64,000 nt of DNA, taken from NCBI GenBank assembly GCA_009777845.1, contig WRLD01000001.1, positions 120,177-184,176 on the forward strand, written 5' to 3'. Numbering within the stretch: the first letter of the stretch is position 1; every line of letters begins with the position of its first letter. The position numbers and the translations under genes are program-made. The DNA comes from Defluviitaleaceae bacterium (GTDB lineage Bacteria; Bacillota; Clostridia; Lachnospirales; WQUN01). The notes under the pieces are model-generated. The model worked only from the letters and a program-made list of their open reading frames with translations, was not told the DNA's origin and did no database searches. Below, piece after piece: positions 4,086-63,426 of the stretch.

Positions 4086-4177
4086 TGATTTATGGAGCGT
4101 GGATTTAGTGAGTTATGGAACGCGGATTTAGTGATTTATGGAGCGTGGATTTAGTGAGTTATGGAACGCGGATTTTC
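4086..4177. repeat. 46-bp tandem duplication (x2) of a family A left-end variant
   Basis: TGATTTATGGAGCGTGGATTTAGTGAGTTATGGAACGCGGATTTAG occurs twice in a row (4086-4131 and 4132-4177). Confidence 0.8.
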
Positions 4178-4494
4178 GCGGATTTGGCGGATTTTCGCGG
4201 ATTCTTTCCGTGTAAATTCACGGCAGTGGAATGGAAGTTTTGTCCATGCAAGTTAAGGATAGTGGAACGCGGATTTAACGGATTTTCACGGATTTGGCGG
4301 ATTGGCTCGTGGGAAAATATTTCGCCGTTTAGTAGATTACGCGGACAAAATCCGCGTAATCCGTGCAAATCCGCGTTCAATGCCTTTAAAATCCGCACAA
4401 ATAAAAACCCACGCAATTCACATTCCCTAGGTTTGAATGAACACGAGAAAAAATCCGCGAAAATCCGTTAAATCCGCGAAAATCCGCGTTCCAT
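4161..4494. mobile_element. Family A MITE-like element, copy A-1 (334 bp, non-autonomous)
   Basis: It starts ATGGAACGCGGATTTTCGCGGATTT and ends with the exact reverse complement AAATCCGCGAAAATCCGCGTTCCAT, a 25-bp perfect TIR. CGGATT boxes recur every 9-10 bp in both arms. The only ORFs are repeat-derived (MERGFSDLW...). Confidence 0.7.
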
Positions 4495-4507
4495 AATTTT
4501 TTATATA

Positions 4508-5452: not shown

Positions 5453-6493
5453 TCAATCACGCAAGCGTATTACATTCGCGGCTTTACGGCGTTTTGTGTC
5501 GTCCATTTTTGCATAATGCTTTCGCGTGGTGTTTACGTCACTGTGACCCAGCACATTTGCGACAAGGTAAATGTCGCTCGTTTCGGCGTACAGCTGTGTG
5601 CCAAACGTGCTACGTAATTTATGCGGCGAAATATTTTTCAGCCTAGTAACAAGCGAGGCATATTTTTTTACCATTTTCTGGATTTGCCGCGTGGTTATTC
5701 TGCGATTTTGCAGCGAAAGAAAAACCGCGTCCTCATGCCCTTTTTCGGGGAACGCCTCGTCACGCTCGTCCAAATACGCAAAAAGCGCGGCTTCTACCTC
5801 GTCGCCGAAGTACAAAATCATTTCGTCGCCGCCCTTTCGTCTTACACGCAGGCCGTTTGTTTCAAAGTCAATGTCACGCAAATTAAGCCCGACACATTCC
5901 GACACTCTCATGCCAGTTCCAAGCAACAGGGTAATAATCGCCGCGTCCCTAAGCCGCGTTTTTTCGTGGAAAACCTTTTGCCGCTCGGTTAAATTCTCGC
6001 CGCTGTCTATCTCGTCCAACAATCGCGCTATTTCGTTTGTTTCCAGTGTCGTAATCGTTTTTTCGTTCATTTTCGGGAAATCAATCAGCTCCGCAGGGTT
6101 CGCTAGTATTAGTTTCTTCTTATATAAATACTTAAAAAACACGCGCACCGCCGCGAGCTTGCGCGACTTTCCTGCCGCCGCATTCTTTACCGCCGTTTCG
6201 GGGCTTTCCGCAGGCACATAATATGTTAAATATTCCATAAATTCTTCTATGTCGTCCGACTCCACCTCACGCATTTTTTCTACAGTAATCTGCAAAACAG
6301 GCACATAAAAAACTTCCTCCGACAGGAATTTAAAAAAAATACGCAAATCATAAGCGTACCCAAGCCGCGTAAGCGTTGCCGTTTGGTCGCCAAGGCTACG
6401 AAAAAAGCCCGCCGCAAACTGCGGCAGTGTCTTTAACATCTCACGCAGCTTGAGAATGTTTTGGTTGTCTTGGTCTGTGTGGTAGGTACTCAT
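5453..6493 (-). CDS. Tyrosine recombinase, XerC/XerD-like
   Basis: 346 aa. Catalytic blocks are LLLGTGMRVSECVGL, SPHKLRSTFGTQLY and LGHSDVNTTRKHY (R...HxxR...H...Y), preceded by an N-terminal SAM-like domain. Confidence 0.8.
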   Translation of the reverse strand: MSTYHTDQDNQNILKLREMLKTLPQFAAGFFRSLGDQTATLTRLGYAYDLRIFFKFLSEEVFYVPVLQITVEKMREVESDDIEEFMEYLTYYVPAESPETAVKNAAAGKSRKLAAVRVFFKYLYKKKLILANPAELIDFPKMNEKTITTLETNEIARLLDEIDSGENLTERQKVFHEKTRLRDAAIITLLLGTGMRVSECVGLNLRDIDFETNGLRVRRKGGDEMILYFGDEVEAALFAYLDERDEAFPEKGHEDAVFLSLQNRRITTRQIQKMVKKYASLVTRLKNISPHKLRSTFGTQLYAETSDIYLVANVLGHSDVNTTRKHYAKMDDTKRRKAANVIRLRD

Positions 6494-6520: not shown

Positions 6521-6655
6521 ATGGAACGCGGATTTTCACGGATTCTTTCCGTGTAAATTGACGACAGTGGAATACAAATTTTATCCATGTGAATTAAAGG
6601 TGGCGGAACACGGATTTAACGGATTTTCGCGGATTTGGCGGATTCGTTCGTACTT
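6521..6655. repeat. Family A left end, truncated by the family B insertion
   Basis: ATGGAACGCGGATTTTCACGGATTC... continues to ...GGCGGATTCGTTCGTACTT, where it abuts B1. No matching right TIR follows. Confidence 0.6.
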
Positions 6656-6809
6656 CTGCTGTGCCACGCTCCCTCTGTGCCTCTGTGCCTCTGTGTGAAA
6701 ATCTTTTTGACAAATAATGAACGTAGGTAAAGCGTATAACTTCCATTCTTTAGTTAAAAGATTTTTTCACACAGAGGCACAGAGGCACAGAGGGAACGAG
6801 GCATAGCAG
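6656..6809. repeat. Family B hairpin element, copy B1 (~154 bp)
   Basis: The left arm CTGCTGTGCCACGCTCCCTCTGTGCCTCTGTGCCTCTGTGTGAAAATCTTTT pairs with the right arm AAAAGATTTTTTCACACAGAGGCACAGAGGCACAGAGGGAACGAGGCATAGCAG. The loop is ~47 nt. Confidence 0.8.
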
Positions 6810-6861
6810 ACACGAAACGTAAATTAAAATATTGCGTTTGTTGTGGGGATTTGCAGGTTTT

Positions 6862-6973
6862 TGTAGGGGACGGATTTATCCGTCCCGAGGTATTAACGCT
6901 CGTCAATTCGGGCAGGCAACGTCTATTAACGCAGAGCGAGGTAATCTCGGGACGGATAAATCCGTCCCCTACA
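6862..6973. repeat. Family C palindromic element, copy C1 (112 bp)
   Basis: TGTAGGGGACGGATTTATCCGTCCCGAG...CTCGGGACGGATAAATCCGTCCCCTACA. Each end is a 9-bp-arm hairpin, and the two ends are inverted repeats of each other. Confidence 0.85.
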
Positions 6974-7014
6974 AGAACCTGCAATTTCCCAGTGGTTTAA
7001 CAAATGATTTATGC

Positions 7015-7130
7015 AACACGGATTTAACGGATTTTCGCGGATTTGGCGGATTCGTTCGTGGTAAAATATATCGCCGTTTGGTAATTTACGCGGACAAAAT
7101 CCGCGTAAATAAAAAACCACGCAATTTGCG
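7015..7130. repeat. Family A internal fragment
   Basis: AACACGGATTTAACGGATTTTCGCGGATTTGGCGGATTCGTTCGTGG...CGCGGACAAAATCCGCGTAAAT...CCACGCAATT is collinear with 4266-4420 of copy A-1. Confidence 0.6.
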
Positions 7131-7155: not shown

Positions 7156-7268
7156 TGTAGGGGACGGATTTATCCGTCCCGAGATTACCTCGCTCTGCGT
7201 TAATGGACGTTACTCGTCCCGAATTGACGAACGTGCGTACCTCGGGACGGATAAATCCGTCCCCTACA
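7156..7268. repeat. Family C palindromic element, copy C2 (inverted relative to C1)
   Basis: It has the same ends as C1, and its core is the reverse complement of the C1 core (GAGATTACCTCGCTCTGCGTTAATGGACG...). Confidence 0.85.
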
Positions 7269-13930: not shown

Positions 13931-13970
13931 TCAACCGCCGAAAACCTCATTCGAGGCTTTCGGCGGTTGA
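13931..13970. other. Long perfect hairpin in the leader of the A2M-like gene
   Basis: TCAACCGCCGAAA / TTTCGGCGGTTGA are 13-bp arms. The inner CCTC/GAGG pairing extends the stem. The hairpin lies 26 nt upstream of the ATG at 13997. Confidence 0.6.
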
Positions 13971-13996
13971 CAAAAAAAACCCCACGGAGGCTCATT

Positions 13997-16684
13997 ATGC
14001 TGTCTAAATTTTCTAACCTTTCTAAAAGCGACAAAAAGCTAATATTCACAGTCGCAGGAATAGCCCTTGTGCTACTTATAGCCGTAGCGTGTATCGCTAT
14101 GCTTACCAACATGCCCGAAAAAAATGACGGCCTAGCCGAAAACACAGAAAACACCGAAAACCGCGAAACCACACAACCCTACCCACCCCAAAACGAAGCC
14201 CTGCCGCCGTCTGTCGCGCCGTCTGCGTTGGGAAGCATAAGCATTTTGCCGCTTAGCCAAAATGAATTTGGTGTAACGGTGGATTCCGACTTTTTAATTA
14301 CGTCAGAAACAAACGCGCTGGACACGGAACACCTAATAAGCTACCTATCCTCACGCAATGGCGAGCAGTTTACCATAACGGAACGAGAGCGCGAGGCAGA
14401 CGAGAACGCAGAATTTATCCTGCAATTCGACAACGAGCTAGAGCCAAACAAAATAGTAAGCCTAGTCTACCAGCCCCCATACCATGCCCCCACCTCTCAC
14501 GCGTTCCAAACTGCCGACCTCTTTCGTATAATCACCACCTCGCCTGCAAGCAATACGCACAATGTACCCCTAGACGGCAGTATACAAGTGACCTTTAACC
14601 GAGAGCTTGGCGGCTTGACGGCGTTTAATGACGCGCTTGTGTTTGACCCGCCGCTAGATGGCAGAGTATTACAGCTAGAGGACAGCTTTACCTACGTTTT
14701 CGCGCCTACTGCCCTAGCATCTAATACCACCTATAGAGTAACGGTCAAGCAAGGTCTTGTTAGCGTTTTGGGCGAGGCTATAGACGAGGACTATACCTTT
14801 TCGTTTTCTACGAGGTGGGGAAACACAGACATGCCGCCGTTTAGCGTTTTGGGCGATGTGTACGAAAATTTCCTGCCGTGGGACGAGGTCTTTATCGAGC
14901 TTGAATTTCCGCGCGATTTTACAGCGCGCAGCTTTACCGTAGAGCTGTCCAAGCTAGACGATTACGGGAGCTATATAAATTTTGATGGAACAGGGGAAAC
15001 GCCGATTGACAGCTACGAGCTAGAGGTCGTAGAGTTTGGCTCACAGTACGACGCTAGCTATTATTTATTCCTAGAAACAACACTGCCAGTGGGCTACTAT
15101 GTAGCAAGAATACGCGCCGAGGATATAGACACAACGGCACATAAATTCATACAGGTTTCGCCGCTGTCGGTGTATTCGCTTGTGCTTAACGATGAAGCCA
15201 TTTTTTGGGTGAATGATGCCGAAACAGGCGAGCCTGCCCAAGGCGCGAAAATCGCCGTAGACGGCTACGAAATAATAACCGACAGTGACGGCATTGCGAG
15301 GACAACCACCACTACCGTAAGCAGGCAAACACAAATAGTGGTAGACTATGCTCCGCATTTGCCCTTTGTGTACACCACGCCCACCTACGATAGCTACACG
15401 CTCATACCCTCCGACCGCTTTCTTTCCTATATGTACACCGACCGCCCTCGCTACCGCCCAGACGACACCATAGACGTGTTTGGCGTAATAATGCCGCGCT
15501 ACGGCCATTCTCATTCCTCCGAGGACGTATTTACATTAAAAATAGGCGACATGCTAGAAATGCCCATTAGCCTAGACTCGCATAGCTCCTTTGCGGTACG
15601 CGTGCCTGTCACCAATATGCTAGGCAACGCCACTATCGAGATTCAAGTAAACGGCGAACGGCTAATGTCCTCGTGGGTGTATTTTATTGATTATACCAAT
15701 CTTGAATTTATTCTTTCGGAGAAGCTAGACAAGCTAGTCTACGAGCCAGACGAAATCGCGCAGGTGGAAATAACCGTAACAAATTTTGCGGAGCAACCCA
15801 TAGCAGATGTCGAGCTAGTCCGTAGATGGGCGGACGAGCTTAGTCCGTACACGAGAATGTCCACGGGCGCGGACGGCATAGCCAGAGGAGAATTGCAGAT
15901 TATTACGCGCGGTACAACCTGGCAGCCCTACTGGGATAACGCGTGGTACGCTGTACAGGGCGATGCCCAAGGCTCGCAGGGCATTAGCCTAAATTATATC
16001 ACAGTACCGCGCGATATAATGCTCGAACACGAATGGAACGGCGATACACTGCTTGTAAGCACAAATGAAATCTTGGCCGAAAAAATAGCCGAACACTACA
16101 AAAACGAACGCATATGGACACCTATAGCAAATAATGTTTTCCGCGGCGAGCCAGTGGACGTTGATTTTGAAATTATTGTCACTAGGCATGTCACCACTCG
16201 TACAGAGCGTAGCCGTTACTACGACCGAATCAATCGGCGCGAGGCAGTCACCTATGATTACAGCCATACCCGAGATGAAAACTACATGCGTATCAACGGG
16301 CGTACGGTAAACGGCAAAGCGGAAATAACAAGCCTGCCAAGCTCGCAAGAGGAGCCGCTAATTAGTTATAGCTTTGAAATACGTTGCAAAGACACGAGGG
16401 GACGGGAAATCGTTGTTTGGCCGTGGCGGCCGTGGTGGTACGATATACCTCTGGAAGAATCCAATCTTCGTAATTTTATTTTTGTTCCAGAAAAAAGAAG
16501 CCTATGCGTGAATGAAACAACCGCTATTTCACTAAGGGAGTTTAGCGGATGGAGATTGCGTGAGGACACAACAGAACCCACACAAGGGCGATTGTTGCTT
16601 ATGACAACGCGTGACAAAATCCTTTCCGCTAATGTATCAAGCCCCCAAGGAGCGGAAGTGACCTTTACCCAAGAGGGGGATTAG
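13997..16684 (+). CDS. Alpha-2-macroglobulin-like large surface protein, N-terminal fragment (frameshifted gene)
   Basis: The ATG at 13997 lies 7 nt after GGAGG, and the TTG at 13967 is rejected. There is a signal-anchor helix and an SbsA-Ig-like segment (TSPASNTHNVPLDGSIQVTFNRELG). The ORF ends in a G5 run at 16675-16679. Confidence 0.6.
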   Translation: MLSKFSNLSKSDKKLIFTVAGIALVLLIAVACIAMLTNMPEKNDGLAENTENTENRETTQPYPPQNEALPPSVAPSALGSISILPLSQNEFGVTVDSDFLITSETNALDTEHLISYLSSRNGEQFTITEREREADENAEFILQFDNELEPNKIVSLVYQPPYHAPTSHAFQTADLFRIITTSPASNTHNVPLDGSIQVTFNRELGGLTAFNDALVFDPPLDGRVLQLEDSFTYVFAPTALASNTTYRVTVKQGLVSVLGEAIDEDYTFSFSTRWGNTDMPPFSVLGDVYENFLPWDEVFIELEFPRDFTARSFTVELSKLDDYGSYINFDGTGETPIDSYELEVVEFGSQYDASYYLFLETTLPVGYYVARIRAEDIDTTAHKFIQVSPLSVYSLVLNDEAIFWVNDAETGEPAQGAKIAVDGYEIITDSDGIARTTTTTVSRQTQIVVDYAPHLPFVYTTPTYDSYTLIPSDRFLSYMYTDRPRYRPDDTIDVFGVIMPRYGHSHSSEDVFTLKIGDMLEMPISLDSHSSFAVRVPVTNMLGNATIEIQVNGERLMSSWVYFIDYTNLEFILSEKLDKLVYEPDEIAQVEITVTNFAEQPIADVELVRRWADELSPYTRMSTGADGIARGELQIITRGTTWQPYWDNAWYAVQGDAQGSQGISLNYITVPRDIMLEHEWNGDTLLVSTNEILAEKIAEHYKNERIWTPIANNVFRGEPVDVDFEIIVTRHVTTRTERSRYYDRINRREAVTYDYSHTRDENYMRINGRTVNGKAEITSLPSSQEEPLISYSFEIRCKDTRGREIVVWPWRPWWYDIPLEESNLRNFIFVPEKRSLCVNETTAISLREFSGWRLREDTTEPTQGRLLLMTTRDKILSANVSSPQGAEVTFTQEGD

Positions 16685-16694: not shown

Positions 16695-18902
16695 TTGTAT
16701 GGCGCGTATTTTGACGGTAAATATGTTTTCCCTGTATCTGGCTATCAGACCATAGAATATGACTTTACGGAGCAGAAATTAGAAATAGAGCTAGACTTTG
16801 ACAAGGAGGAATACCGCCCGAGCGAGGAGGTCACGCTAACTATACAAACTGCGGCACAATCGCAGGTTTTAATAAGCGTGGTAGACGAGTCGGCAATCCC
16901 TAACCAATGGCATAATGCCAATTTTATCAGAGAGCTATACCTAAGTTCGAGAAACTATAGATGGCAGAGCAGAAGCAGTCAGTACGCTTCCTATACACAG
17001 CACGATTTTGGCGGCTATGACGGCGGCGCGGAGGGCGGCGGCGGCGACGACGATTACGAGAGCGACCGATTCCGTGACTTTTTCGTGGATAACCCGATTT
17101 TTGAAATAGTAAAAACAGACGAAAACGGCGTAGGACAGCTCACATTTACCTTGCCCGACCAGATTACGTCATGGCGCGTTACTGCCATAGGGCTAACCGA
17201 GGACGGCTTTGCAGGCGATACCAAGGAAAATATTATTTCGTTCTTGGATTTTTACTGCGACCTGCTGTACACGCATGAGTATATCGCAGGTGACGATATA
17301 GCCGCCTTGGCTAGAGTTTACGGCGCGGACGAGGCCGAATTTACGTTTAATGTCTTATCGCAGGACGAAGTGATTTTTACCGATACACAGCAGGGGCGGC
17401 GCGTTGTTTTTAATGCAGGCAAGCTGCCAGTGGGCGAATACAAGGTACAGCTAGTAGCAAAAAGCGGAGAGCTAAGCGATGCGGTAGAGCTTCCGTTTAC
17501 TATAGTAGATTCGGCGTTGATTATTCAAAGCTACGTGTCGGGCGTGGTTTCGCCTGACGGCGATATTACCCTGCCAGAGCTTAATATGCGTGATTTTCCT
17601 GTGCGTATTACGCTAAGCAACGCGAATATACAACCGCTCACAAGCATTTTGTGGGCGGCGGCGTGCAGTCAATCTTCACGCACGGACAATAACGCGGCGG
17701 CGGCATACGCCCAATACTTTTTTACTGGCGAGGACAGCGCGTACAAGGTCGCGCACGCCAGTGACGGCGGGATTCCCGAGCTTATCTATGAAAATTCCGA
17801 CTGGTATTATACGGCGCGCTTTGCGGCGGCGTTTCCCGAATATGTAGAGCGTGAGAAAATTATTAGCTATGTACGGAACGGCATGGTTGACAGCGCAGGC
17901 AGAGCCGCAAGCACCGAAAAGCGCGCCGCTGGCTTGCTTGCTTTGGCGGCGGTGGGCGAGCCTGTTTTGCTTGAAATACAAGAGCTGTTAAGCGAGGCAA
18001 GAAGCACGTTAAGGAGCGGCAATTATAACGTGTACTTGTATCTTGCCGCCGCCTTGGTGACAATCGGTGACGATAGCGGCGCGGCAGAAATTATTTCCAA
18101 TTTAGATGCTAATGATGTAAGGCTTGACATGATTGAAACCCGCGACACGCTTATGTTCTATATAAATACCGCCCTTGACCCACAAGCGGCATGGGAATAC
18201 GTGCGAAAGGCTCCGCAAAACAAAATTGTAAGCGACATAGCCGAGCGAGTTAATTTTGTACGGCGTATACAGCTCATGGACGGCACAATTTCCGAGGTAG
18301 AATACACCCTAGACGGCGTACGGCACAGCCTGCGGCTAGAAAACGACCGCATACAGCAGCTGCATATATCCGCCTTCAGCACGCTGTGCGTTGTCTGCGC
18401 CCTATCGAACTACGGCAACCAGTATTTGCATATATCCAAGGAGCAGTTTGACGCGCTCGACCTAGTAGCCGTAAAGGGCGAAACTGAGTATTCAATCGAG
18501 TTTTACAGCTCGGACGGCTCGAACTGGAACGAAGCCGACAGAAACGTAAGCATAACGCGCGAAATAGAACACGAAAACGGCATGGAGCGTATTACGTTTA
18601 CTGTAACCGCGGACAGAGAGCGTACCTCGTTCTCCAGCTTTGTAATTTACGACCGTGTGCCAAGCAATATGCGCTTTATGTCCGCACGCCACCCATTGGG
18701 CGGCAGGCACGCATGGACGAACGTACGCCATATACAACGCCAGCTAGTAGAAATACGCTTTTGCCTTTGCTCGTACTGCGCCTATAGCCGTACTGTTTCG
18801 TACTACGCAAATAAGCTGTTTGATGCCGATATGGCGGACGGTGTGGCGTATGTGACTAATGGTCGGGTTTGGGGTCATTCGTGGGGGAGGACGGGGGCAT
18901 AG
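16695..18902 (+). CDS. Alpha-2-macroglobulin-like large surface protein, C-terminal fragment
   Basis: This is the +1 frame relative to the upstream fragment, and it is open from 16662. FRDFFVDNPIFEIVKTDENGVGQLTFTLPDQITSWRVTAIGLTEDGF is the classic A2M-family block. I saw no CxEQ thioester motif. Confidence 0.6.
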   Translation: MYGAYFDGKYVFPVSGYQTIEYDFTEQKLEIELDFDKEEYRPSEEVTLTIQTAAQSQVLISVVDESAIPNQWHNANFIRELYLSSRNYRWQSRSSQYASYTQHDFGGYDGGAEGGGGDDDYESDRFRDFFVDNPIFEIVKTDENGVGQLTFTLPDQITSWRVTAIGLTEDGFAGDTKENIISFLDFYCDLLYTHEYIAGDDIAALARVYGADEAEFTFNVLSQDEVIFTDTQQGRRVVFNAGKLPVGEYKVQLVAKSGELSDAVELPFTIVDSALIIQSYVSGVVSPDGDITLPELNMRDFPVRITLSNANIQPLTSILWAAACSQSSRTDNNAAAAYAQYFFTGEDSAYKVAHASDGGIPELIYENSDWYYTARFAAAFPEYVEREKIISYVRNGMVDSAGRAASTEKRAAGLLALAAVGEPVLLEIQELLSEARSTLRSGNYNVYLYLAAALVTIGDDSGAAEIISNLDANDVRLDMIETRDTLMFYINTALDPQAAWEYVRKAPQNKIVSDIAERVNFVRRIQLMDGTISEVEYTLDGVRHSLRLENDRIQQLHISAFSTLCVVCALSNYGNQYLHISKEQFDALDLVAVKGETEYSIEFYSSDGSNWNEADRNVSITREIEHENGMERITFTVTADRERTSFSSFVIYDRVPSNMRFMSARHPLGGRHAWTNVRHIQRQLVEIRFCLCSYCAYSRTVSYYANKLFDADMADGVAYVTNGRVWGHSWGRTGA

Positions 18903-18984: not shown

Positions 18985-19094
18985 ATGGAACGCGGATTTA
19001 CACGGATTTACGCGGATTGGCTCGTGCGAAAACATTTCACGGATTTCCCACGAACGAATCCGCGTAATCTGCGTAAATCCGTTAAATCCGTGTT
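18985..19094. repeat. Family A short element (ATGGAACGCGG left end, AAATCCGTGTTT right end)
   Basis: ATGGAACGCGGATTTACACGGATTTACGCGGATTGGCTCGTGCG...GAATCCGCGTAATCTGCGTAAATCCGTTAAATCCGTGTTT. Confidence 0.65.
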
Positions 19095-19184
19095 TAAATA
19101 TACCTTTTTTTCGCTTATATTTCTTCCGTGCCTCGCTCCCTCTGTGGGAAAATATTCCTGCCTGTCCCGCAATTCGCAAGGTTT

Positions 19185-19297
19185 TGTAGGGGACGGATTT
19201 ATCCGTCCCGAGGTATGCACGCTCGTCAATTCGGGCAGGGTAACGTCAATTAAAATAGAGCGAGGTAATCTCGGGACGGATAAATCCGTCCCCTACA
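19185..19297. repeat. Family C element, copy C3
   Basis: TGTAGGGGACGGATTTATCCGTCCCGAGGTATGCACGCTCGTCAATTCGGGCAGGG...CTCGGGACGGATAAATCCGTCCCCTACA. Confidence 0.85.
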
Positions 19298-19344
19298 AGT
19301 AGCCGTCACTAAGCCTTGAGAGATTGGCAGGTTTTTTAAAGGCA

Positions 19345-19458
19345 ATGGAACGCGGATTTACACGGATTACGCGGATTTTGTCTGCGTAAATTACCAAACG
19401 GCGATATATTTTCCCACGAGCCAATCCGCAAAATCCGCGTAAATCCGTTAAATCCGTG
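19345..19458. repeat. Family A short element
   Basis: ATGGAACGCGGATTTACACGGATTACGCGGATTTTGTCTGCGTAAATTACCAAACGGCG...CCAATCCGCAAAATCCGCGTAAATCCGTTAAATCCGTG. Confidence 0.65.
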
Positions 19459-19460
19459 TG

Positions 19461-19487: not shown

Positions 19488-19512
19488 AATCCCTTAAATC
19501 TACATTTTATCG

Positions 19513-19665
19513 TCTGTCGTGCCTCGCTCCCTCTGTGCCTCTGTGCCTCTGTGTGAAAAAATCTTTTAACTAAAGAATGGAGCTATACGCTTTACCTACG
19601 TTCATTATTTGTCAAAAAGATTTTCACACAGAGGCACAGAGGCACAGAGGGAGCGAGGCACGGAA
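19513..19665. repeat. Family B hairpin element, copy B2 (loop inverted relative to B1)
   Basis: The arms are the same as in B1, and the loop AACTAAAGAATGGAGCTATACGCTTTACCTACGTTCATTATTTGTC is the reverse complement of the B1 loop. A truncated left arm also occurs at 19126-19146. Confidence 0.8.
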
Positions 19666-19680: not shown

Positions 19681-19793
19681 TGTAGGGGACGGATTTATCC
19701 GTCCCGAGGTATGCACGCTCTATAATTCGGGGCAGGTAACGTCAATTAAAGTAAAGCGAGGTAATCTCGGGACGGATAAATCCGTCCCCTACA
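19681..19793. repeat. Family C element, copy C4
   Basis: Same ends as C1-C3. Confidence 0.85.
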
Positions 19794-19961: not shown

Positions 19962-21509
19962 ATGAAAAGGCTAATTTTTGCACTGGTTGCCGTTGCCATG
20001 CTTTTTACGGCAATGCAGGTAAACGCGCAAGGCATAACCAACACCGTCCGCGAAATCAACGGCGAAATGGTTGTTATTTCCACCACGGACGGCAGGGCAT
20101 TACAGCGTGACACCACAGGCATTACCGCCTTTTCGGACGACTTCCCCGCCCCGAGCAACCCACACTGGGGCGAAAACTACGAAATACACTTTGGCGAGCT
20201 TGATTTTGCCGAGGGCATGTATCACGTTCTCTTGTACAAGGACGATGTGTTGATTTCCGACCTTCGCCATTATCTTTTCGATTGGTATAACCAAGGCTTT
20301 CTTACTGCATTTTGCCACAAATATATTACAGACAGCGGTGTCTATCGCTTTGAGGTAGCGGGAATAATCGACGCTGTATTTGACCCATCAGTCGGCTTTA
20401 CCTACGAGTGCGGAGAGTACGCCGAATCGTCAATTACGTACACCAAGCCTGCGGAAGCACTTGGCACAGCCACAAACCTACGGTGGGAGCAGGGCAGTGA
20501 CAGAATGATTTTGCACTGGGATTTACCGCCCGACGTAGACGAGAATGCGCAATACGATATATGTCTTTATAAGCTAGACGATTTGGGCGAACCAGACATT
20601 GCCGCTTTCACATACGGCATGGCGGTGCATAACCACCCTACCTACTTTGATGGGTTTAATTCTAACTGGGGATTTACAGAACCCGGCACATATTTTGCCA
20701 CAGTACGCTTGCTCAGCGGACGTTTGGACGAAATCGCCAGCGGCGTGGAAGCCGAAAGCCCCTACTACGATTTAGCCGAGGTTGTTGTCAATATCGGCAG
20801 AGATGTCGAATATCTGTTCTATGATGTGCTTGACGGCTTTGTTTCCCCCGAAGAGGCAAGGGACACACTCGCAAGCATGAACAACCACGACCTAGCCGTT
20901 GCTATGCAGGGCGACCCCGCCGTGCTTGACGACATAAAATCGCTAGAGTATTTATACAACTCCCAAAAGGGCATAAGCGTAAGCCGAACAGTAGCGGACG
21001 AAATAGACCTAGATGCGGACAAAATAAGCGTTGTCGGCGCGGGCTTCAACACAAGCGTTTTCGGGCAGGACATGAAGCTAAACTTTACCGTGCCTAACGA
21101 GCAAGTAGTAGTAAACGACAGCCAGTACAAAAACTGGGTACAGTTTAACATAGACCTAGACGGCAGAGATACGCCCGCAGGCGGAGAGCTAGACGTACCA
21201 GTACAAATTACCATGCCGATTCCTGCGGGAGTTTCGCTGATTCGGTTTGTTATACTGCACTACAAAGCGGACGGCTCCTACGACACCATTCACCCTATTC
21301 TCAACCTTGATGACGGCACGGCTACTTTTACGGTAACGCGGTTTAGCGTGTTTGTTTTCGCTAATGGCGTAGACGATGGTTTTCCCGCTACTGGCGTTTC
21401 GAGCCACACAACGCAGTCTATGCTAATGCTTGGGCTTTTTGCTGTGGCGGTTGTTTTGTTTGGGGTTGTGTTTTCTCGTGGGGCTTTATGGAATAGAACG
21501 CGGATTTAG
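19962..21509 (+). CDS. Secreted surface protein with an FPATG sorting-signal-like C-terminus
   Basis: It has a signal peptide (MKRLIFALVAVAMLFTAMQVNA). The C-terminus is FPATG, then a hydrophobic helix, then SRG...NRTRI. The last residues and the stop are encoded by a solo family A end (TGGAATAGAACGCGGATTTAG). Confidence 0.65.
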   Translation: MKRLIFALVAVAMLFTAMQVNAQGITNTVREINGEMVVISTTDGRALQRDTTGITAFSDDFPAPSNPHWGENYEIHFGELDFAEGMYHVLLYKDDVLISDLRHYLFDWYNQGFLTAFCHKYITDSGVYRFEVAGIIDAVFDPSVGFTYECGEYAESSITYTKPAEALGTATNLRWEQGSDRMILHWDLPPDVDENAQYDICLYKLDDLGEPDIAAFTYGMAVHNHPTYFDGFNSNWGFTEPGTYFATVRLLSGRLDEIASGVEAESPYYDLAEVVVNIGRDVEYLFYDVLDGFVSPEEARDTLASMNNHDLAVAMQGDPAVLDDIKSLEYLYNSQKGISVSRTVADEIDLDADKISVVGAGFNTSVFGQDMKLNFTVPNEQVVVNDSQYKNWVQFNIDLDGRDTPAGGELDVPVQITMPIPAGVSLIRFVILHYKADGSYDTIHPILNLDDGTATFTVTRFSVFVFANGVDDGFPATGVSSHTTQSMLMLGLFAVAVVLFGVVFSRGALWNRTRI

Positions 21510-29396: not shown

Positions 29397-30325
29397 TGGC
29401 AGAATTTAACCACGAATCAGTCCTGCCCAACGAGGTAATCAACGCGTTGCAAATACAGCCAAGCGGCGTTTACGTAGACTGCACCTTAGGCGGCGGCGGT
29501 CATTCCGCGCTTATTTGCCAACAGCTTACGGCAGGTAGACTAATCGGCATAGACAGGGACGAAAACGCCATTATTGCCGCTACGAAAAAAATCAATTCGC
29601 CGAGCTTCACGGCAGTACGCGGAAATTTCCACGACTTCGAGGACATAATGCGCGAGCTGGGAATAAAAGAGGGCGCGCTAAACGGCGTTTTGCTCGACCT
29701 TGGCGTTTCGTCACACCAAATAGACGCGCCCGAGCGCGGCTTTTCGTTCCGCCATGATGGGCCTTTAGATATGCGAATGGACACCGCTTCGCCGCTAACC
29801 GCCAAGCAAATAATCAACGAGTATAGCGAAAAAGAGCTAGTCAAAATATTTTTCGAGTACGGCGAGGAACGATTTTCACGCAAAATCGCGCGGCGTATTT
29901 GCCAAGAACGCGAAATCGCGCCTATCGAAACGACCTCGCGCCTTGCCGCCATTATAGAAAAGTCACAGCCCTTTAAGCCGTCCGCACCGCACCCTGCCAT
30001 GCGTACATTTATGGCGTTGCGTATAGCCGTAAACAACGAGCTTTCGCCGCTCGGCGCGGTTTTGCAAGCCGCGGTAGGCTACCTTGCGCCCAACGGCAGA
30101 ATAGCCGTCATTTCCTTTCATTCCCTAGAGGACAGAATTGTAAAGGCTACGTTCGCCAAGCTCGCCTCGCCCTGCGAATGTCCGCGTGATATTCCGTATT
30201 GTGTATGCGGAAAAACGCCTACGCTTAGGCTGGTTACACGCAAGCCGATTGTTCCGACGGCGGCAGAGGTTGAGAGGAATAAACGCTCGCATAGTGCTAA
30301 GTTGAGAGTGGGGGAGAGGGTTTAA
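29396..30325 (+). CDS. 16S rRNA (cytosine1402-N4)-methyltransferase RsmH (MraW)
   Basis: HESVLPNEV...YVDCTLGGGGHS...GIDRDENA...DLGVSSHQID..ERGFSF..DGPLDMRM...ISFHSLEDRIVK. There is a TAATG overlap with the PBP1A gene. Confidence 0.9.
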   Translation: MAEFNHESVLPNEVINALQIQPSGVYVDCTLGGGGHSALICQQLTAGRLIGIDRDENAIIAATKKINSPSFTAVRGNFHDFEDIMRELGIKEGALNGVLLDLGVSSHQIDAPERGFSFRHDGPLDMRMDTASPLTAKQIINEYSEKELVKIFFEYGEERFSRKIARRICQEREIAPIETTSRLAAIIEKSQPFKPSAPHPAMRTFMALRIAVNNELSPLGAVLQAAVGYLAPNGRIAVISFHSLEDRIVKATFAKLASPCECPRDIPYCVCGKTPTLRLVTRKPIVPTAAEVERNKRSHSAKLRVGERV

Positions 30326-30356
30326 AGGATTTAAAGGATTTAAAGGATTTAAAGGC
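30321..30356. repeat. 9-bp tandem repeat TTTAAAGGA x4 overlapping the rsmH stop codon
   Basis: TTTAAAGGA TTTAAAGGA TTTAAAGGA TTTAAAGGC, directly followed by the family A TIR. Confidence 0.8.
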
Positions 30357-30460
30357 ATGGAACGCGGATTTTCGCGGATTTGGCGGATTTTCGCGGATTT
30401 TTTCGAGGTTTTATTGAAAGCTAACGGAACGCGGACGGACGGCGAAATTTGCATGTTTTA

Positions 30461-30634
30461 TGTAGGGGACGGACAAGCAGGCAGTAAATATGTAGGGGAC
30501 GGACAAGCAGGCAGTAAATATGTAGGGGACGGATTTATCCGTCCCGAGATTACCTCGCTCTGCGTTAATGGACGTTATCCTCCCCCGAATTGACGAACGT
30601 GCATACCTCGGGACGGATAAATCCGTCCCCTACA
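30461..30634. repeat. Family C element, copy C5 (30521-30634), preceded by two 30-bp tandem copies of a variant left end
   Basis: TGTAGGGGACGGACAAGCAGGCAGTAAATA occurs twice, followed by a complete C element. Confidence 0.8.
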
Positions 30635-30747
30635 AAAACCCATGAAAATCCGCGTAAATCCATATATAATATAACGCAGATAAAATCCGCAAAATCCGCG
30701 AAAATCCGTTAAATCCGTGTGAAGCCCTTGAATCCGCGTTTCATTGT

Positions 30748-30910
30748 CTGCTGTGCCACGCTCCCTCTGTGCCTCTGTGCCTCTGTGTGAAAATCTTTTT
30801 GATAAATAATGAACGTAGGTAAAGCGTATAACTTCCATTCTTTAGTTAAAAGATTTTTTCACACAGTAGTTCGCACAGAGGCACAAAGCAGAGGGAGCGA
30901 GGCACAGCAG
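30748..30910. repeat. Family B hairpin element, copy B3 (right arm degenerate)
   Basis: The left arm is CTGCTGTGCCACGCTCCCTCTGTGCCTCTGTGCCTCTGTGTGAAAATCTTTT. The right arm carries substitutions (CACACAGTAGTTCGCACAGAGGCACAAAGCAGAGGG). Confidence 0.75.
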
Positions 30911-31091
30911 AAATACGAACAATACGTAAATTTCTAACTACACGGATAAAAAAGCACGCCCGAAAAAATCCGCGAAAATCCGTTAAATCCGCGTAAATCC
31001 GCGTTCCATTGCTTTTAAATTCACGTTCCATCGCTTTTAAATCCGCGTTCCATGCCCTTAACAAAAAACAGCACGAATTGAGGTATAACCC

Positions 31092-35444: not shown

Positions 35445-35537
35445 AAACACGGATTCAGCGGATTCTCACGGATTTACGCGGATTCGTTCGTGCAAAAATC
35501 CGCGTAAATCTGCGTGAATCCGCTTAAATCCGTGTTA
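35445..35537. repeat. Family A inner palindrome, solo copy (93-bp hairpin)
   Basis: AAACACGGATTCAGCGGATTCTCACGGATTTACGCGGATTCGTTCGTGCAAAAATCCGCGTAAATCTGCGTGAATCCGCTTAAATCCGTGTT begins 4 nt after the cinA stop. Confidence 0.8.
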
Positions 35538-35634
35538 ATCAGATTTAAAATCAAAGAAGCTATACGCTTTTGCAATTCATGCGTTTGCTATTCATGCTTT
35601 TACCGTTTATGCGTTTGTCGTAGGGCTTTGCCTT

Positions 35635-41229: not shown

Positions 41230-41273
41230 TACATATGGGGGCGTGTTTTCGTCCTGTCTAGCTTAAATAAATG

Positions 41274-41556
41274 TGGAATGCGGATTTTCGCGGATTTTTT
41301 CTTGTGCAAACTGCGTTCTAGGTCTTTATTTGGAGCTTACAAAAATATTATAGATTAAACACGGATTTGGCGGATTTACGCAGATTTTCGCGGATTTTGT
41401 CTGGCACGTTTTTTTATCCGCGTAATCCGTGTAAATCCATTAAATCCGTGTTTGATACCCTTTAAAAACCTACGCAATCCGCAATCCGTAAGTTTTGAAT
41501 AAACGCAAGAAAAAATCCGCGTAAATCCGTTAAATCCGCGTAAATCCGCGTTCCAT
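41274..41556. mobile_element. Family A element, copy A-5 (283 bp) with nested inner palindrome (41357-41454)
   Basis: The left end is TGGAATGCGGATTTTCGCGGATTTTTTC and the right end is AAAAAATCCGCGTAAATCCGTTAAATCCGCGTAAATCCGCGTTCCAT. Confidence 0.7.
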
Positions 41557-41596: not shown

Positions 41597-41625
41597 TTGA
41601 CAACTAGGTTCTATACATGTAGAAT
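41597..41625 (+). promoter_or_regulatory. Sigma-A-type promoter of blaI with an overlapping TACA/TGTA inverted repeat (candidate BlaI operator)
   Basis: TTGACA (41597-41602), a 17-nt spacer and TAGAAT (41620-41625). TTCTATACATGTAGAA spans the spacer and the -10, with a TACATGTA core palindrome. Confidence 0.55.
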
Positions 41626-43284: not shown

Positions 43285-43815
43285 GATAGAACGCGGATTT
43301 ACGCGGATTTAACGGATTTTCGCGGATTTTAAAAACATTAAACACGGATTTACGCAGATTACGCGGATTCGTTCGTGCTTCTGCTGTGCCTCGCTCCCTC
43401 TGTGCCTCTGTGCCTCTGTGTGAAAAAATCTTTTAACTAAAAAATGGAAGTTATACGCTTTATCTGCGTTCATTATTTGTCAAAAAGATTTTCACACAGA
43501 GGCACAGAGGCACAGAGGGCGAGAGGCACAGCAGACAATAGCGTACGTATTTAGAGGCAATCAAACACGGATTTACACGGATTTACGCAGATTACGCGGA
43601 TTTTATCGGGCGGAGCGGATTTTCGTAGATTTTCCCACGAGCCAATCCGCGTAATCCGTGAAAATCCGTTAAATCCGCGTTCCATACCCTTAAACTACCC
43701 CCTTACAAAAAAATATCCACGACACTCCGCCCACTCCGTAGAATCCGCGGAAATCCGCCAAATCCGCGAAAATCCGCGTTCCATGCCTCTAAAATCCGCC
43801 AAACCCGCGTTCCAT
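43285..43815. mobile_element. Family A element, copy A-6, with nested B4 and extra right-end copies
   Basis: The left end is GATAGAACGCGGATTTACGCGGATTTAACGGATTTTCGCGGATTTT. Right ends CCGCGTTCCAT occur at 43685, 43794 and 43815. Confidence 0.65.
43381..43534. repeat. Family B hairpin element, copy B4 (loop in B2 orientation)
   Basis: CTGCTGTGCCTCGCTCCCTCTGTGCCTCTGTGCCTCTGTGTGAAAAAATCTTTT...AAAAGATTTTCACACAGAGGCACAGAGGCACAGAGGGCGAGAGGCACAGCAG. Confidence 0.8.
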
Positions 43816-45223: not shown

Positions 45224-45447
45224 ATGGAACGCGGATTTTCGCGGATTTAACGGATTTTCGCGGATTTTTTCTAACCTTTATTAAAAGCTAACGCAACACG
45301 GATTTAAAGGATAATTAAACACGGATTACACGGATTTACGCAGATTTCACGGATTCAAAAGTACGCCCGAAAGAATCCGCGGAAATCCGCCAAATCCGCG
45401 AAAATCCGCGTTCCATGCCCTTAAAATCCACTAAATCCACGTTCCAT
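45224..45447. mobile_element. Family A element, copy A-7
   Basis: ATGGAACGCGGATTTTCGCGGATTTAACGGATTTTCGCGGATTTTTTC...GAATCCGCGGAAATCCGCCAAATCCGCGAAAATCCGCGTTCCAT ends at 45416. An extra degenerate end reaches 45447. Confidence 0.7.
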
Positions 45448-52358: not shown

Positions 52359-52398
52359 GTGCGGATTTAATGAATTTATACGGATTATTATTAAACAT

Positions 52399-52533
52399 AA
52401 ACACGGATTTAACGGATTTTCACGGATTACGCGGATTCGTTCGTACGAAAATCCGCTTGTGCGAAATCCACGAAAATCCGACAGGCACGATAAAATCCGC
52501 GTAAATCTGCGTAAATCCGCATAATCCGTGTTT
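52399..52533. repeat. Family A inner palindrome, long variant (135 bp), left copy
   Basis: AAACACGGATTTAACGGATTTTCACGGATTACGCGGATTCGTTCGTACGAAAATCCGC...GCGTAAATCTGCGTAAATCCGCATAATCCGTGTTT is near-identical to 53051-53185. Confidence 0.8.
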
Positions 52534-52583
52534 AACAATCACTTGTTAAACCAACCAATGCCAACAAATTAGTGACGGTTAAT

Positions 52584-52999
52584 TGTAGGGGACGGATTTA
52601 TCCGTCCCGAGGTATGCACGCTCGTCAATTCGAGGACGGATAACGTCCAGTAACACAGAGCGCGGTAATCTCGGGACGGATAAATCCGTCCCCTACAAAA
52701 AACCGCCACCAATCCCAAGTCTTAACCTACTGGCATTTGTAGGGGACGGATTTATCCGTCCCGAGGTATGCACGCTCGTCAATTCGAGGACGGATAACGT
52801 CCAGTAACGCAGAACGCGGTAATCTCGGGACGGATAAATCCGTCCCCTACAAAAAACCGCTACCAAGCCTAAATCTTAACCTACTTGCATTTGTAGGGGA
52901 CGGATTTATCCGTCCCGACCCCCGCACGTTCTGACAGAATTTGCTCGCTCTAAAATGATAAACGTACGCATATCGGGGCGGACAAGTCCGCCCCCTACA
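52584..52999. repeat. Tandem array of three family C units (C6, C7, degenerate C8), period ~154 bp
   Basis: C6 is 52584-52697, C7 is 52738-52851 and C8 is 52892-52999. The ~40-bp spacers are homologous (AAAAAACCGC(C/T)ACCAA..CTTAACCTAC(T)TGCATT). C8 has a different core and a GGGGCGGACAAGTCCGCCCC right hairpin. Confidence 0.8.
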
Positions 53000-53050
53000 A
53001 AAACCTTGCCATTGGCAGTCACACACCAAAAGCAGATTTTTAGAAACATA

Positions 53051-53185
53051 AAACACGGATTTAACGGATTTTCACGGATTACGCGGATTCGTTCGTGCGA
53101 AAATTCGCTTGTGCGAAATCCACGAAAATTCGATAAGCACGATAAAATCCGCGTAAATCTGCGTAAATCCGCATAATCCGTGTTT
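53051..53185. repeat. Family A inner palindrome, long variant, right copy (direct repeat of 52399-52533)
   Basis: Same sequence with a few substitutions (GTGCGAAAATTCGC, AAAATTCGATAAGC). Confidence 0.8.
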
Positions 53186-53253
53186 AATTCTTCACAAAGC
53201 AGGTAGATGTGTATCGTTTGTGTGGGAATTTTTATGATAAGGAGTAAGCAAGC

Positions 53254-55516: not shown

Positions 55517-55857
55517 GACGGAACGCGGATTTTCGCGGAGTTGGCGGATTTTAAAGGCATGGAACGCGGATTTTCGCGGATTTAACGGATTTTCGCGGAT
55601 TTTTTCTCGCGTTCATTAAAAGCTAACGGAACACGCACCTTACTACGCAGATTTAATGGATTCAAGGGCTTCACACGGATTTAACGGATTTTCACGGATT
55701 ACGCGGATTGGCTCGTGGGAAAGTCCACGAAAATCCGATAAGCCCGATAAAATCCGCATAATCTGCGTAAATCCGCGTTTTGTGGTTTTAAAATCCGCGA
55801 GAATCCGCCAAATCCGCGGAAATCCGCGTTCCATTATCTTTAAAATCCGCATTCCAT
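55517..55857. mobile_element. Family A element, copy A-8 (core 55559-55834) with flanking partial ends
   Basis: ATGGAACGCGGATTTTCGCGGATTTAACGGATTTTCGCGGATTTTTTC...GAGAATCCGCCAAATCCGCGGAAATCCGCGTTCCAT. It contains a nested inner palindrome at ~55673-55790. Confidence 0.7.
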
Positions 55858-57504: not shown

Positions 57505-57545
57505 GTTTTTTGTATGGGACGGATTTATCCGTCCCATACAAAAAA
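57505..57545. repeat. Core-less family C palindrome (single perfect hairpin)
   Basis: TTTTTTGTATGGGACGGATTTATCCGTCCCATACAAAAAA has ~19-bp arms around TT. Confidence 0.85.
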
Positions 57546-57576
57546 CTTGCAATCATTTTTTACACGGTCGTGTATC

Positions 57577-57688: not shown

Positions 57689-57733
57689 AAAAACCTGCAA
57701 TTCCCTTAACTTGACAGTGGATTTCAAGTGATT

Positions 57734-57842
57734 AAAACACGGATTTAACGGATTTACGCGGATTCGGCGGATATAGCGGACGTAGCGAATTTTCCCACGA
57801 ACGAATCCGCATAATCCGCGAAAATCCGTTAAATCCGTGTTT
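57734..57842. repeat. Family A inner palindrome, solo copy
   Basis: AAAACACGGATTTAACGGATTTACGCGGATTCGGCGG...GAATCCGCATAATCCGCGAAAATCCGTTAAATCCGTGTTT. Confidence 0.75.
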
Positions 57843-57907
57843 AATAATACTTTAAATCCGCACTCCATTTAATAATCCGTCAAATCCGTGTTTGATAAAC
57901 AATAATC

Positions 57908-61108: not shown

Positions 61109-61185
61109 TATATTTTTTGTCGTAGGTTGGTATAATAGAGCTATCATGGAATCTTTAAAGATTATGGAATGCGAATTTTAAAGGC

Positions 61186-61356
61186 ATGGAACGCGGATTT
61201 TCGCGGATTTGGCGGATTCTCGCGGATTCTGTCTGGCGTAAATTCATAAAATCCACACAATTAAAAACCCACGCAATTCCGTGTTCCGTTAGTTCTTAAT
61301 GGAAGCACGAAAAAATCCGCGAAAATCCGTTAAATCCGCGTAAATCCGCGTTCCAT
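61186..61356. mobile_element. Family A element, copy A-9 (171 bp, shortest complete copy; inverted relative to A-4/A-7/A-8)
   Basis: ATGGAACGCGGATTTTCGCGGATTTGGCGGATTCTCGCGGATTC...CGAAAAAATCCGCGAAAATCCGTTAAATCCGCGTAAATCCGCGTTCCAT. A degenerate extra left end lies at 61164-61185. Confidence 0.75.
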
Positions 61357-63423: not shown

Positions 63424-63426
63424 GAT

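What the first reader, a model, noticed from the sequence alone, without database searches (positions are those of the whole stretch)
4161..4494. Family A: MITE-like element with 25-bp perfect TIRs made of helically phased CGGATT boxes (at least 9 copies in 64 kb)
The copy at 4161-4494 begins ATGGAACGCGGATTTTCGCGGATTT and ends with its exact reverse complement, and arm similarity continues to ~43 nt. In each arm CGGATT recurs four times at 10/9/10-bp spacing separated by T-tracts, about one box per helical turn. That predicts curved DNA or a cooperative protein-binding array. TIR-to-TIR copies of variable length are 4161-4494, 30357-31009, 41274-41556, 43285-43685, 45224-45416, 55559-55834 and 61186-61356. 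One-ended or rearranged copies lie at 6521, 18985, 19345, 21488 and 55517. Length differences are explained by nested B and C insertions and by an inner palindrome AAACACGGATTT...AAATCCGTGTTT, which also occurs solo at 35445, 52399, 53051 and 57734. No transposase or RAYT gene is present, and ORFs across the elements are repeat translations (MERGFSRIWRI...). Five copies end 40-110 bp upstream of gene starts (ftsL, blaI, 43852, 45480, 61399). Promoters for those genes must therefore lie in the elements or read through them.
Basis: seen in the sequence. Interest (0 to 1): 0.75.

Follow-up and report, generated by a model that had tools for sequence, protein, structure and literature searches.

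The report
Iteron-armed inverted-repeat intergenic element family
The window is peppered with a real, unannotated family of small non-coding inverted-repeat elements whose 43-base arms are four tightly conserved CGGATT boxes one helical turn apart; they behave like mobile "junk" inserted between genes, but they lack the footprints of a classical transposon and their ends recur in distant bacterial phyla.

Summary
The 25-mer ATGGAACGCGGATTTTCGCGGATTT occurs 18 times (0 expected by chance). There are 7 arm-to-arm pairs and 12 intergenic repeat clusters in 64 kb. The host is a termite-gut Defluviitaleaceae MAG.

New findings:
- Each arm is a 5-nt cap plus four invariant boxes at 10/9/10 bp. Only the spacer bases vary.
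- Every complete element has one "G-arm" and one "A-arm", so the ends are heterotypic and are not selected for pairing.
- The ends are fuzzy. They have a TTTAARGGC extension and 22-23-bp stuttered head units.
- No target-site duplication is detectable.
- Interiors are mosaics that include a second (h-type) subfamily, family B hairpins and family C, which is a GTAG-tagged REP dimer.
- Orthologous sites in four related Defluviitaleaceae contigs are empty, while near-identical strains are all filled.
- The same head plus phased boxes occur in Bacteroidales, Paraprevotella, Pirellulales and high-GC contigs.
- Rfam, plasmids, phages and the literature gave no match. No transposase lies within about 74 kb.

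Best reading: a non-autonomous mobile intergenic element whose arms are a protein-binding iteron array for an unidentified trans-acting recombinase. It resembles MITEs, REPINs and BIMEs but is a member of neither MITEs nor REPs. The curvature and promoter ideas are weakly supported.

The parts
4092..4494 (+). Complete A element in G-arm to A-arm orientation. Three stuttered head units (4092, 4115, 4138), G-arm 4161-4203, nested h-type unit 4262-4381, A-arm 4452-4494. It lies between convergent genes, 13 bp from the stop of the DivIVA-like gene.
6521..7130 (+). Rearranged cluster. It holds a head plus one box and the G-arm extension module (6521-6602), an inner 4-box arm (6603-6644) and an h-type half unit (7011-7130). 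These are interleaved with one B hairpin and two C REP dimers. It starts 28 bp upstream of the Xer-like recombinase gene.
18985..19460 (.). Two H-headed, h-type short hairpin units (18985-19110 and 19334-19460) with a C dimer between them.
21493..21507 (+). Solitary head unit (ATAGAACGCGGATTT) with no boxes, at the 3' end of ORF 19962-21509.
30327..31053 (+). Composite insertion between the mraW stop and ftsL. It contains a GGATTTAAA 9-bp microsatellite (30327-30356), G-arm 30357-30399, a nested C dimer (30462-30633), an inner arm (30684-30744), a nested B hairpin (about 30747-30912), A-arm 30967-31009 and two stuttered heads (31017-31053).
35445..35545 (.). Solo h-type unit. It is a near-perfect hairpin with a stem of about 43 bp made of 4+4 boxes, 4 bp after the CinA stop, between convergent genes.
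41273..41556 (+). A element with a truncated left arm (head plus one box), a nested h-type unit 41354-41456 and A-arm 41514-41556. It lies between tRNA-Phe and blaI.
43286..43815 (-). Composite A element. It contains A-arm 43286-43328, an h-type half, a nested B hairpin (about 43378-43538), an h-type unit 43560-43685, G-arm 43742-43784 and an outer stuttered head 43801-43815.
45224..45447 (-). Short A element with A-arm 45224-45266, G-arm 45374-45416 and an outer stuttered head 45433-45447.
52362..53188 (.). Cluster of h-type box arrays (52362-52530 and 53048-53188) flanking three tandem C REP dimers (52585-52998).
55518..55857 (-). A element with a partial outer head/arm 55518-55542, A-arm 55559-55601, a nested h-type unit (about 55660-55790), G-arm 55792-55834 and an outer head 55843-55857.
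57732..57896 (.). An h-type unit plus extra head units, next to two C dimers (57512-57687).
61164..61356 (+). Minimal A element (171 bp, 61186-61356) with G-arm 61186-61228 and A-arm 61314-61356, preceded by one stuttered head at 61164-61178. It lies between murG and the GT4 gene.

Best explanation
Family A is a non-autonomous, horizontally spread intergenic DNA element.

Its functional parts are the two 43-nt arms. Each arm is a cap (ATGGA) followed by four direct iterons, (A/T/G)CGCGGATT(T), spaced one helical turn apart. I infer that an unidentified trans-acting DNA-binding recombinase or transposase, encoded elsewhere in the genome, loads cooperatively on one face of this array. The two distinguishable ends (G-arm and A-arm) would define left and right.

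The interior is dispensable cargo. It accumulates nested insertions of a sister subfamily (h-type) and of families B and C.

Once inserted, the element is tolerated only between genes. When transcribed, the arms must form a duplex hairpin of about 43 bp, which is inferred to be an RNase III or attenuator substrate. So the elements probably also modulate operon mRNA.

Shown: the anatomy, the conservation pattern, the copy number, filled versus empty orthologous sites, and presence across phyla. Inferred: protein binding, the identity and mechanism of the mobilising enzyme, and any RNA-level effect.
For: 1. Repeat reality and density. The 25-mer has 18 hits against 0 expected.

2. Insertion. The mraW-ftsL gap is 1-8 bp in three related Defluviitaleaceae contigs and 767 bp here, with the mraW C-terminus intact. 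A relative with a 78%-identical Xer-like gene keeps the recombinase-DivIVA synteny but has no A, B or C repeats in 17 kb. The relatives have no heads and a background box density of 0.8-1.6 per kb (about 0.9 per kb in four of the five relative loci), against 3.5 per kb here.

3. Conservation pattern typical of protein-binding iterons. Across 40 arms the box positions are invariant, while spacer positions 16, 26-27 and 35 vary freely, and conservation collapses right after box 4. Interiors are about 41% identical on average while the arms are invariant.

4. Heterotypic ends. The arms of a pair differ at position 26 in 12 of 13 pairs (p about 0.002 under independence). The same G/A asymmetry is seen in a Pirellulales copy.

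5. The same head and 9-10-bp box spacing occur on contigs of 42-62% GC assigned to Bacteroidales, Paraprevotella and Pirellulales, always between housekeeping genes.

6. The element is non-coding. Its ORFs are repeat translations with homologues only in the same MAG.

7. It is strictly intergenic.

8. Hairpin potential has z about -10 as RNA or as DNA.
Against: - No target-site duplication at any offset, and the termini are not sharp (stutter units). A classical DDE cut-and-paste origin is therefore doubtful.
- No autonomous copy and no transposase in 74 kb of this genome. No recurrent neighbouring gene family among the 25 most frequent Pfam families of 110 ORFs next to copies in other loci. 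The L048 contig of the same genome also has none.
- No presence/absence differences among near-identical strains, so recent mobility is not shown.
- Invariant arms beside diverged interiors could equally reflect selection for a host function in place.
- Binding by any protein is entirely inferred.
Confidence: 0.55

Rival explanations
1. Host-selected cis-acting element. The arms would be a binding array for a conserved host DNA-binding or nucleoid protein, or the element would act as a hairpin-type transcript end or processing signal (terminator, attenuator, mRNA stabiliser, as REP/BIME, ERIC or SPRITE do). On this view the copies are kept because they are useful rather than because they are mobile.
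For: - The arms are invariant while the interiors decay.
- The consensus is conserved across phyla.
- Clusters begin 2-83 bp after stop codons.
- In the close relative L049 a canonical hairpin plus T-run terminator sits downstream of the DivIVA-like gene, exactly where the window has the A element.
- Several outer flanks are A/T runs, for example CCAT-AATTTTTT at 4494 and CCAT-TGATTTTTTT at 41556.
- The hairpins are very stable.
Against: - Orientation relative to the flanking genes is not fixed. The G.U-compatible strand is the sense strand in 3 of 5 cases (and the arm types).
- No consistent T-run follows the stem, and terminator-like hits are not above shuffles.
- Related genera do without the elements.
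- Elements sit inside an essential, normally translationally coupled operon junction (mraW-ftsL), where a terminator would be harmful.
- Spacer positions are anti-correlated between arms, which argues against selection for pairing.
Confidence: 0.2
2. Component of a REP/RAYT-type (HUH, single-strand) system. On this view family A is moved by, or serves as the preferred 'target palindrome' for, the same Y1 enzyme that maintains the GTAG-tagged REP dimers (family C) found beside it. Mobility would go through hairpinned single-stranded DNA without target duplication.
For: - No TSD.
- Inverted heterotypic dimers and mosaic clusters, like BIMEs.
- Family C (GTAGGGGACGGATTTATCCGTCCC ... inverted copy) meets the GTAG-tag, short-palindrome and head-to-head-dimer definition of REPs in PMC3733652.
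- Family C shares the ACGGAT core with the A boxes.
- C dimers lie in 6 of the 12 A clusters.
- REP dimers nested in longer palindromes are described in PMC3733652.
Against: - The A arms are direct-repeat arrays. They are not palindromic units and carry no GTAG or CGTC tag.
- A occurs without C in six of the twelve clusters.
- A occurs without C in the inspected stretches of L001-L003; those loci were not scanned specifically for C.
- No RAYT gene was seen in the 74 kb examined.
Confidence: 0.15
3. Structured non-coding RNA gene or riboregulator family, for example a protein-sponge RNA with repeated GGA motifs.
For: Repeated (A/C)NGGA motifs about every 10 nt and very stable folds.
Against: - No Rfam match at the gathering threshold or at E<=1 apart from spurious miRNA-hairpin hits on family B.
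- There is no strand bias.
- The GGA motifs would be buried in a perfect duplex.
- Differences between the arms are fixed rather than compensatory.
- Interiors are mosaics of other repeats.
Confidence: 0.05

Closest known systems
Bacterial MITEs (Correia/CREE, ERIC, RUP, Nezha; as defined in PMC3184786)
   Same: Small (about 100-650 bp), non-coding, multi-copy and intergenic. They have long terminal inverted repeats, stable hairpins, and filled versus empty orthologous sites.
   Different: No target-site duplication and no cognate IS with the same ends were found. The arms are built of four phased iterons. The termini stutter. The interiors are mosaics rather than a conserved core.
REP / REPIN / BIME elements with RAYT (PMC3116915, PMC3733652)
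   Same: No TSD. High density just outside ORFs. Inverted heterotypic dimers that fold into one long hairpin. Mosaic clusters. No transposase nearby, as expected for a single-copy enzyme. A bona fide GTAG-REP family (C) co-resides with family A.
   Different: The A arms are not short palindromes and lack the GTAG or CGTC tag. REP sequences are lineage-specific, whereas the A head and boxes are conserved across phyla.
Pneumococcal BOX elements (modular A-Bn-C repeats; PMC3184786)
   Same: A Firmicute intergenic element with a modular build, variable numbers of internal modules, complementary end modules, and co-transcription with neighbouring genes.
   Different: No sequence relationship was seen. 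BOX modules are 45-59 bp and are not 10-bp iteron arrays.
Iteron or arm-type binding arrays of recombinases and Rep proteins (for example lambda-type integrase arm sites, the direct repeats bound by pMV158 RepB, multiple transposase sites in Tn7, Mu and IS21 ends). This comparison is from general knowledge and was not tested here.
   Same: Three to four direct repeats at about one helical turn, next to the site of action. The repeats are conserved and the spacers are free.
   Different: Those arrays belong to autonomous elements that encode the binding protein. Here no such gene is linked.

Membership tests
MITE (classical, DDE-transposase derived) | Small non-coding element bounded by terminal inverted repeats | tested here: met
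   The arms are 43 nt, with the first 25 nt perfect at 4161/4494. The ORFs are repeat translations.
MITE (classical, DDE-transposase derived) | Flanking target-site duplication (direct repeat) | tested here: not met
   Across 30 elements the longest direct match between flanks is 3-6 nt and falls at inconsistent offsets. Instead the flanks continue the inverted symmetry (TTTAARGGC, or ACGA in Pirellulales).
MITE (classical, DDE-transposase derived) | A related autonomous IS with the same TIRs | tested here: inconclusive
   None was found in 74 kb of this genome, in 31 other loci, in 72,556 plasmids, in phages or in viral contigs. The whole genome and ISfinder could not be searched.
MITE (classical, DDE-transposase derived) | Insertion polymorphism (filled and empty orthologous sites) | tested here: met
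   The sites are empty in four related Defluviitaleaceae contigs. Near-identical strains are not polymorphic.
REP / REPIN | Unit is a 20-40-bp imperfect palindrome with a GTAG (or CGTC) tag | tested here: not met
   The A arms are direct-repeat arrays without a self-palindrome or tag. Family C does meet this feature.
REP / REPIN | Inverted dimers separated by a spacer, folding into a long hairpin; no TSD | tested here: met
REP / REPIN | Cognate RAYT (Y1 HUH) gene flanked by the repeats | not testable with these tools
   No RAYT was found in the window or in the 10 kb beyond it.
Known structured RNA (Rfam) | Match to a curated covariance model | tested here: not met
   Only tRNAs reach the gathering score. 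At E<=1 there are only spurious miRNA-precursor hits on family B hairpins.
Intrinsically curved DNA | Predicted curvature clearly above background and above shuffled sequence | tested here: inconclusive
   The arms reach 8.7-17.9 degrees per turn, which is the 75th-99.6th percentile of the window. One arm compared with its shuffles gave 12.4 versus 10.1 +/- 3.0. The wedge parameters were taken from memory.

The most novel reading that the evidence does not exclude
The ATGGAACGCGGATTT head plus phased CGCGGAT iterons would mark a previously undescribed superfamily of bacterial intergenic elements spanning several phyla (Bacillota, Bacteroidota, Planctomycetota). It would be propagated without target duplication by a still unknown, conserved DNA-binding enzyme or host factor. 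That would make it a second REPIN/RAYT-like 'domesticated replicator' system, with an iteron-array recognition logic instead of a tagged palindrome.
Probability: 0.25. Interest if true: 0.75.

Novelty: new variant of a known kind. Interest (0 to 1): 0.55.

Why it matters
If the arms are the recognition array of an unknown trans-acting enzyme, this family offers a handle on a new mobilisation system present in several phyla. A phyletic profile of genomes with and without the elements could identify the enzyme.

The family also matters in practical ways:
- It fills almost every intergenic gap larger than 150 bp in this genome.
- It splits a normally translationally coupled essential gene pair (mraW-ftsL).
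- It breaks or chimerises metagenome assemblies (see L006).
- It generates spurious 'hypothetical protein' calls in public databases.

Tried and rejected
- Literature search for the arm sequences returned 0 papers.
- BLAST of an element and of a 48-nt arm against PLSDB plasmids and INPHARED phages found nothing. The only hits were chance matches in cysN/nodQ coding sequence of Sinorhizobium megaplasmids.
- Viral-contig scans gave 0 hits, then one chance hit in coding sequence.
- Rfam at the gathering threshold and at E<=1 found only tRNAs and spurious miRNA hairpins on family B.
- The TSD search found nothing.
- The sigma-70 promoter and terminator scans found no recurrent site in the arms and no excess over shuffles.
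- Hand comparison of the head with sigma-54, ECF -35, DnaA-box, IHF, CsrA and attC/dif consensus sequences found no convincing match. The consensus sequences were from memory and this was not a database test.
- The Xer-like recombinase next to the 6521 copy was considered as the mobilising enzyme and rejected. It is a conserved family-wide gene, also present in relatives that lack the repeats, and it lies outside the arms, not between them.
- A Pfam scan of 110 neighbouring ORFs from 27 other loci showed no recurrent associated gene among the 25 most frequent families.
- Using the spurious ORF as a protein query to reach new loci found only hits in the same MAG. Two of three look-ups were not on record.
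- The L006 junction was considered as a strain polymorphism. It switches partner inside a nested B repeat, so an assembly chimera cannot be excluded.

Full report
**Observation**

The sequence at 4161-4494 begins ATGGAACGCGGATTTTCGCGGATTT and ends with the exact reverse complement. The two arms stay alike to position 43 and differ only at positions 26-27. The 25-mer occurs 18 times at up to 3 mismatches, against 0.00 expected from shuffles.

CGGATT/AATCCG occurs 224 times. 181 of these lie in the 19% of the window that is non-coding (15 per kb, against 0.83 per kb in genes). Same-strand neighbouring boxes are 9 bp (43 cases) or 10 bp (47 cases) apart.
- the 41274 copy starts at 41273 and has a truncated left arm;
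- the outermost partner of 43286 is 43784, not 43685.

**Anatomy**

A token map resolves 12 intergenic clusters. The basic unit, of which 61186-61356 (171 bp) is the best example, is arm - about 85 bp - inverted arm.

Across 40 arms from the window and from same-sample contigs, the cap ATGGA and the four boxes are invariant. Variation is confined to spacer positions 16, 26-27 and 35, and conservation collapses after box 4. The search pattern allowed 4 mismatches in the boxes, and these were almost never used.

The arms come in two types:
- G-arm: ...GATTTGGCGGATT...
- A-arm: ...GATTTAACGGATT...

In 12 of 13 pairs the two arms differ at position 26. Under independence the probability of this is about 0.002. 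So the ends are heterotypic, like the left and right ends of a transposon, and the differences are not compensatory. The pattern therefore points to recognition of each box rather than to selection for hairpin pairing.

Outside the head, most copies continue with TTTAARGGC, and often with 1-3 degenerate head units of 22-23 bp. The termini are therefore not sharp.

Interiors are mosaics (mean column identity 41% in a 10-copy alignment whose arms are invariant). They contain:
- a sister subfamily with the head AAACACGGATTT (h-type), which also occurs as solo hairpins of about 100 bp at 35445, 52399, 53048 and 57734;
- family B hairpins;
- family C.

**Host and surroundings**

FtsL and other proteins identify the source as a termite-gut MAG annotated Defluviitaleaceae bacterium. 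The Pfam scans of the larger ORFs show housekeeping and glycan-degrading genes and no transposase. The only recombinase is a Xer-like gene at 5453-6493. That gene has 65-79% identical orthologues throughout the family, so it is a resident gene and not an element gene. Ten further kb downstream hold two more A clusters and again no transposase.

**Mobility evidence**

In three related Defluviitaleaceae contigs the mraW stop and the ftsL start are 1-8 bp apart, with the ftsL ribosome-binding site inside mraW. In the window they are 767 bp apart. The MraW C-terminus is intact, its TAA stop is part of the first TTTAAAGG unit, and ftsL has a new GAGG site.

A closer relative, with a recombinase 78% identical, keeps the recombinase-DivIVA synteny. 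It has no A, B or C repeats in 17 kb, and a canonical terminator sits where the window has the A element. The relatives have no heads and only background box density.

By contrast, near-identical strains from three samples have the same filled sites. The family therefore expanded in this lineage, but recent movement is not shown.

No target-site duplication was found at any offset in 30 elements. The flanks instead extend the inverted symmetry.

**Distribution**

Exact-pattern scans found the head plus first boxes in 4 loci of the species-representative genomes: a Paraprevotella MAG, a Pirellulales MAG at 62% GC, and a Bacteroidales reactor MAG.

In these lineages the head is again followed by CGCGGAT boxes at 9-10 bp (10-12 bp in the reactor Bacteroidales). 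The elements are again inverted pairs or tandem units of about 200 bp, and they lie between housekeeping genes. One Pirellulales copy shares 33 identical terminal bases with the window and also has a G-type and an A-type arm.

There was no match in plasmids, phages, viral contigs, Rfam or the paper library.

**Function tests**

The elements fold into very stable hairpins as RNA or as DNA, with z about -10.

A wedge-model curvature calculation, using parameters from memory, puts the arms at the 75th-99.6th percentile of the window. However, it does not clearly separate one arm from its own shuffles. The helical phasing is real, but strong intrinsic curvature is not established.

No recurrent sigma-70-like promoter or intrinsic terminator lies in the arms. 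blaI has its own near-consensus promoter between the element and the gene. For six genes (ftsL, 43852, 45480, 61399, the recombinase, and the gene starting at 55487) only 28-43 bp separate the outermost head from the start codon. Their transcription must therefore traverse the element or start inside it.

**Interpretation**

The best-supported reading (0.55) is a non-autonomous mobile intergenic element whose arms are an iteron array for a trans-acting recombinase encoded elsewhere.

It works like a MITE or REPIN but fails the membership tests of both. It has no TSD and no cognate IS, which a MITE requires as defined in PMC3184786. It has no tagged palindrome, which a REP requires as defined in PMC3733652.

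The rivals are:
- a host-selected binding, terminator or processing element (0.2);
- a module or target of the REP/RAYT system represented by family C (0.15);
- a structured RNA (0.05).

**Verdict**

This is a real and unusually dense repeat family. It is a new variant of the MITE/REPIN kind, with an uncommon iteron-built arm and a conserved end across phyla. The mobilising factor is unknown. Interest 0.55.

Noticed in passing
window 6863-6972, 7157-7267, 19186-19296, 19682-19792, 30462-30633, 52585-52998 (three in tandem), 57512-57687: Family C has the form (GCAGGTTTT)TGTAGGGGACGGATTTATCCGTCCCGAG ... inverted copy. It is a GTAG-tagged short palindrome arranged as head-to-head dimers with a spacer of about 70 bp. 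That matches a REP/REPIN-type element as defined in PMC3733652 and implies a RAYT gene somewhere in the genome. Its stem shares the ACGGAT core with the A boxes.
   Followed up: partly
window ~6647-6809, ~19505-19665, ~30747-30912, ~43378-43538: Family B is a hairpin of about 160 bp whose arms are also short tandem repeats (CTCTGTGC, 8-bp period). It produces spurious sub-threshold Rfam hits to plant and animal miRNA precursors. It shares with family A the design of arms made of tandem iterons.
   Followed up: partly
window 30236-30330 and 31054-31094: The composite insertion separates mraW and ftsL, which are translationally coupled in the relatives (1-8 bp gap, RBS inside mraW). In the window ftsL has a new GAGG RBS in a 38-bp stretch of unknown origin. 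GAGGGTTTAA on the left and GAGGTATAAC on the right might be a decayed duplication.
   Followed up: partly
window 41597-41625: A near-consensus sigma-70 promoter (TTGACA-17-TAGAAT) lies between the A element and blaI, outside the element.
   Followed up: yes
L049 9635-9738 versus window 4495-4507: In the closest relative a canonical bidirectional intrinsic terminator follows the DivIVA-like gene. In the window that position is taken by the A element, which is followed by AATTTTTTAT on the + strand.
   Followed up: partly
window 13967-16684 and 16695-18902: The alpha-2-macroglobulin-like gene is one 1608-aa ORF in relative L037 but two adjacent ORFs here (905 and 735 aa). This could be a frameshift or stop, or a real split.
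   Followed up: no
L006 1600-1990 versus window 30911-31009 and L032: A JGI contig follows the window up to the nested B repeat, then continues into a different locus that is 99.96% identical to L032. This is either recombination at the repeats or an assembly chimera. Contigs also often end in these repeats.
   Followed up: partly
window 30327-30356: A 9-bp microsatellite (GGATTTAAA, about 3.5 copies) derived from the head-unit spacer starts inside the mraW stop codon. Together with the stuttered heads, this indicates frequent slippage in these arrays.
   Followed up: no
window 63127-63648: A nucleotidyltransferase (NTP_transf_2) and HepT-like toxin-antitoxin pair.
   Followed up: no
L003 2100-3030, 3560-3880, 6300-7100 (Bacteroidales reactor MAG): In this lineage the same head and boxes form tandem, same-orientation arrays of units of about 200 bp (up to 6 units), each with an internal GC hairpin. 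This organisation differs from the inverted pairs in the window.
   Followed up: partly
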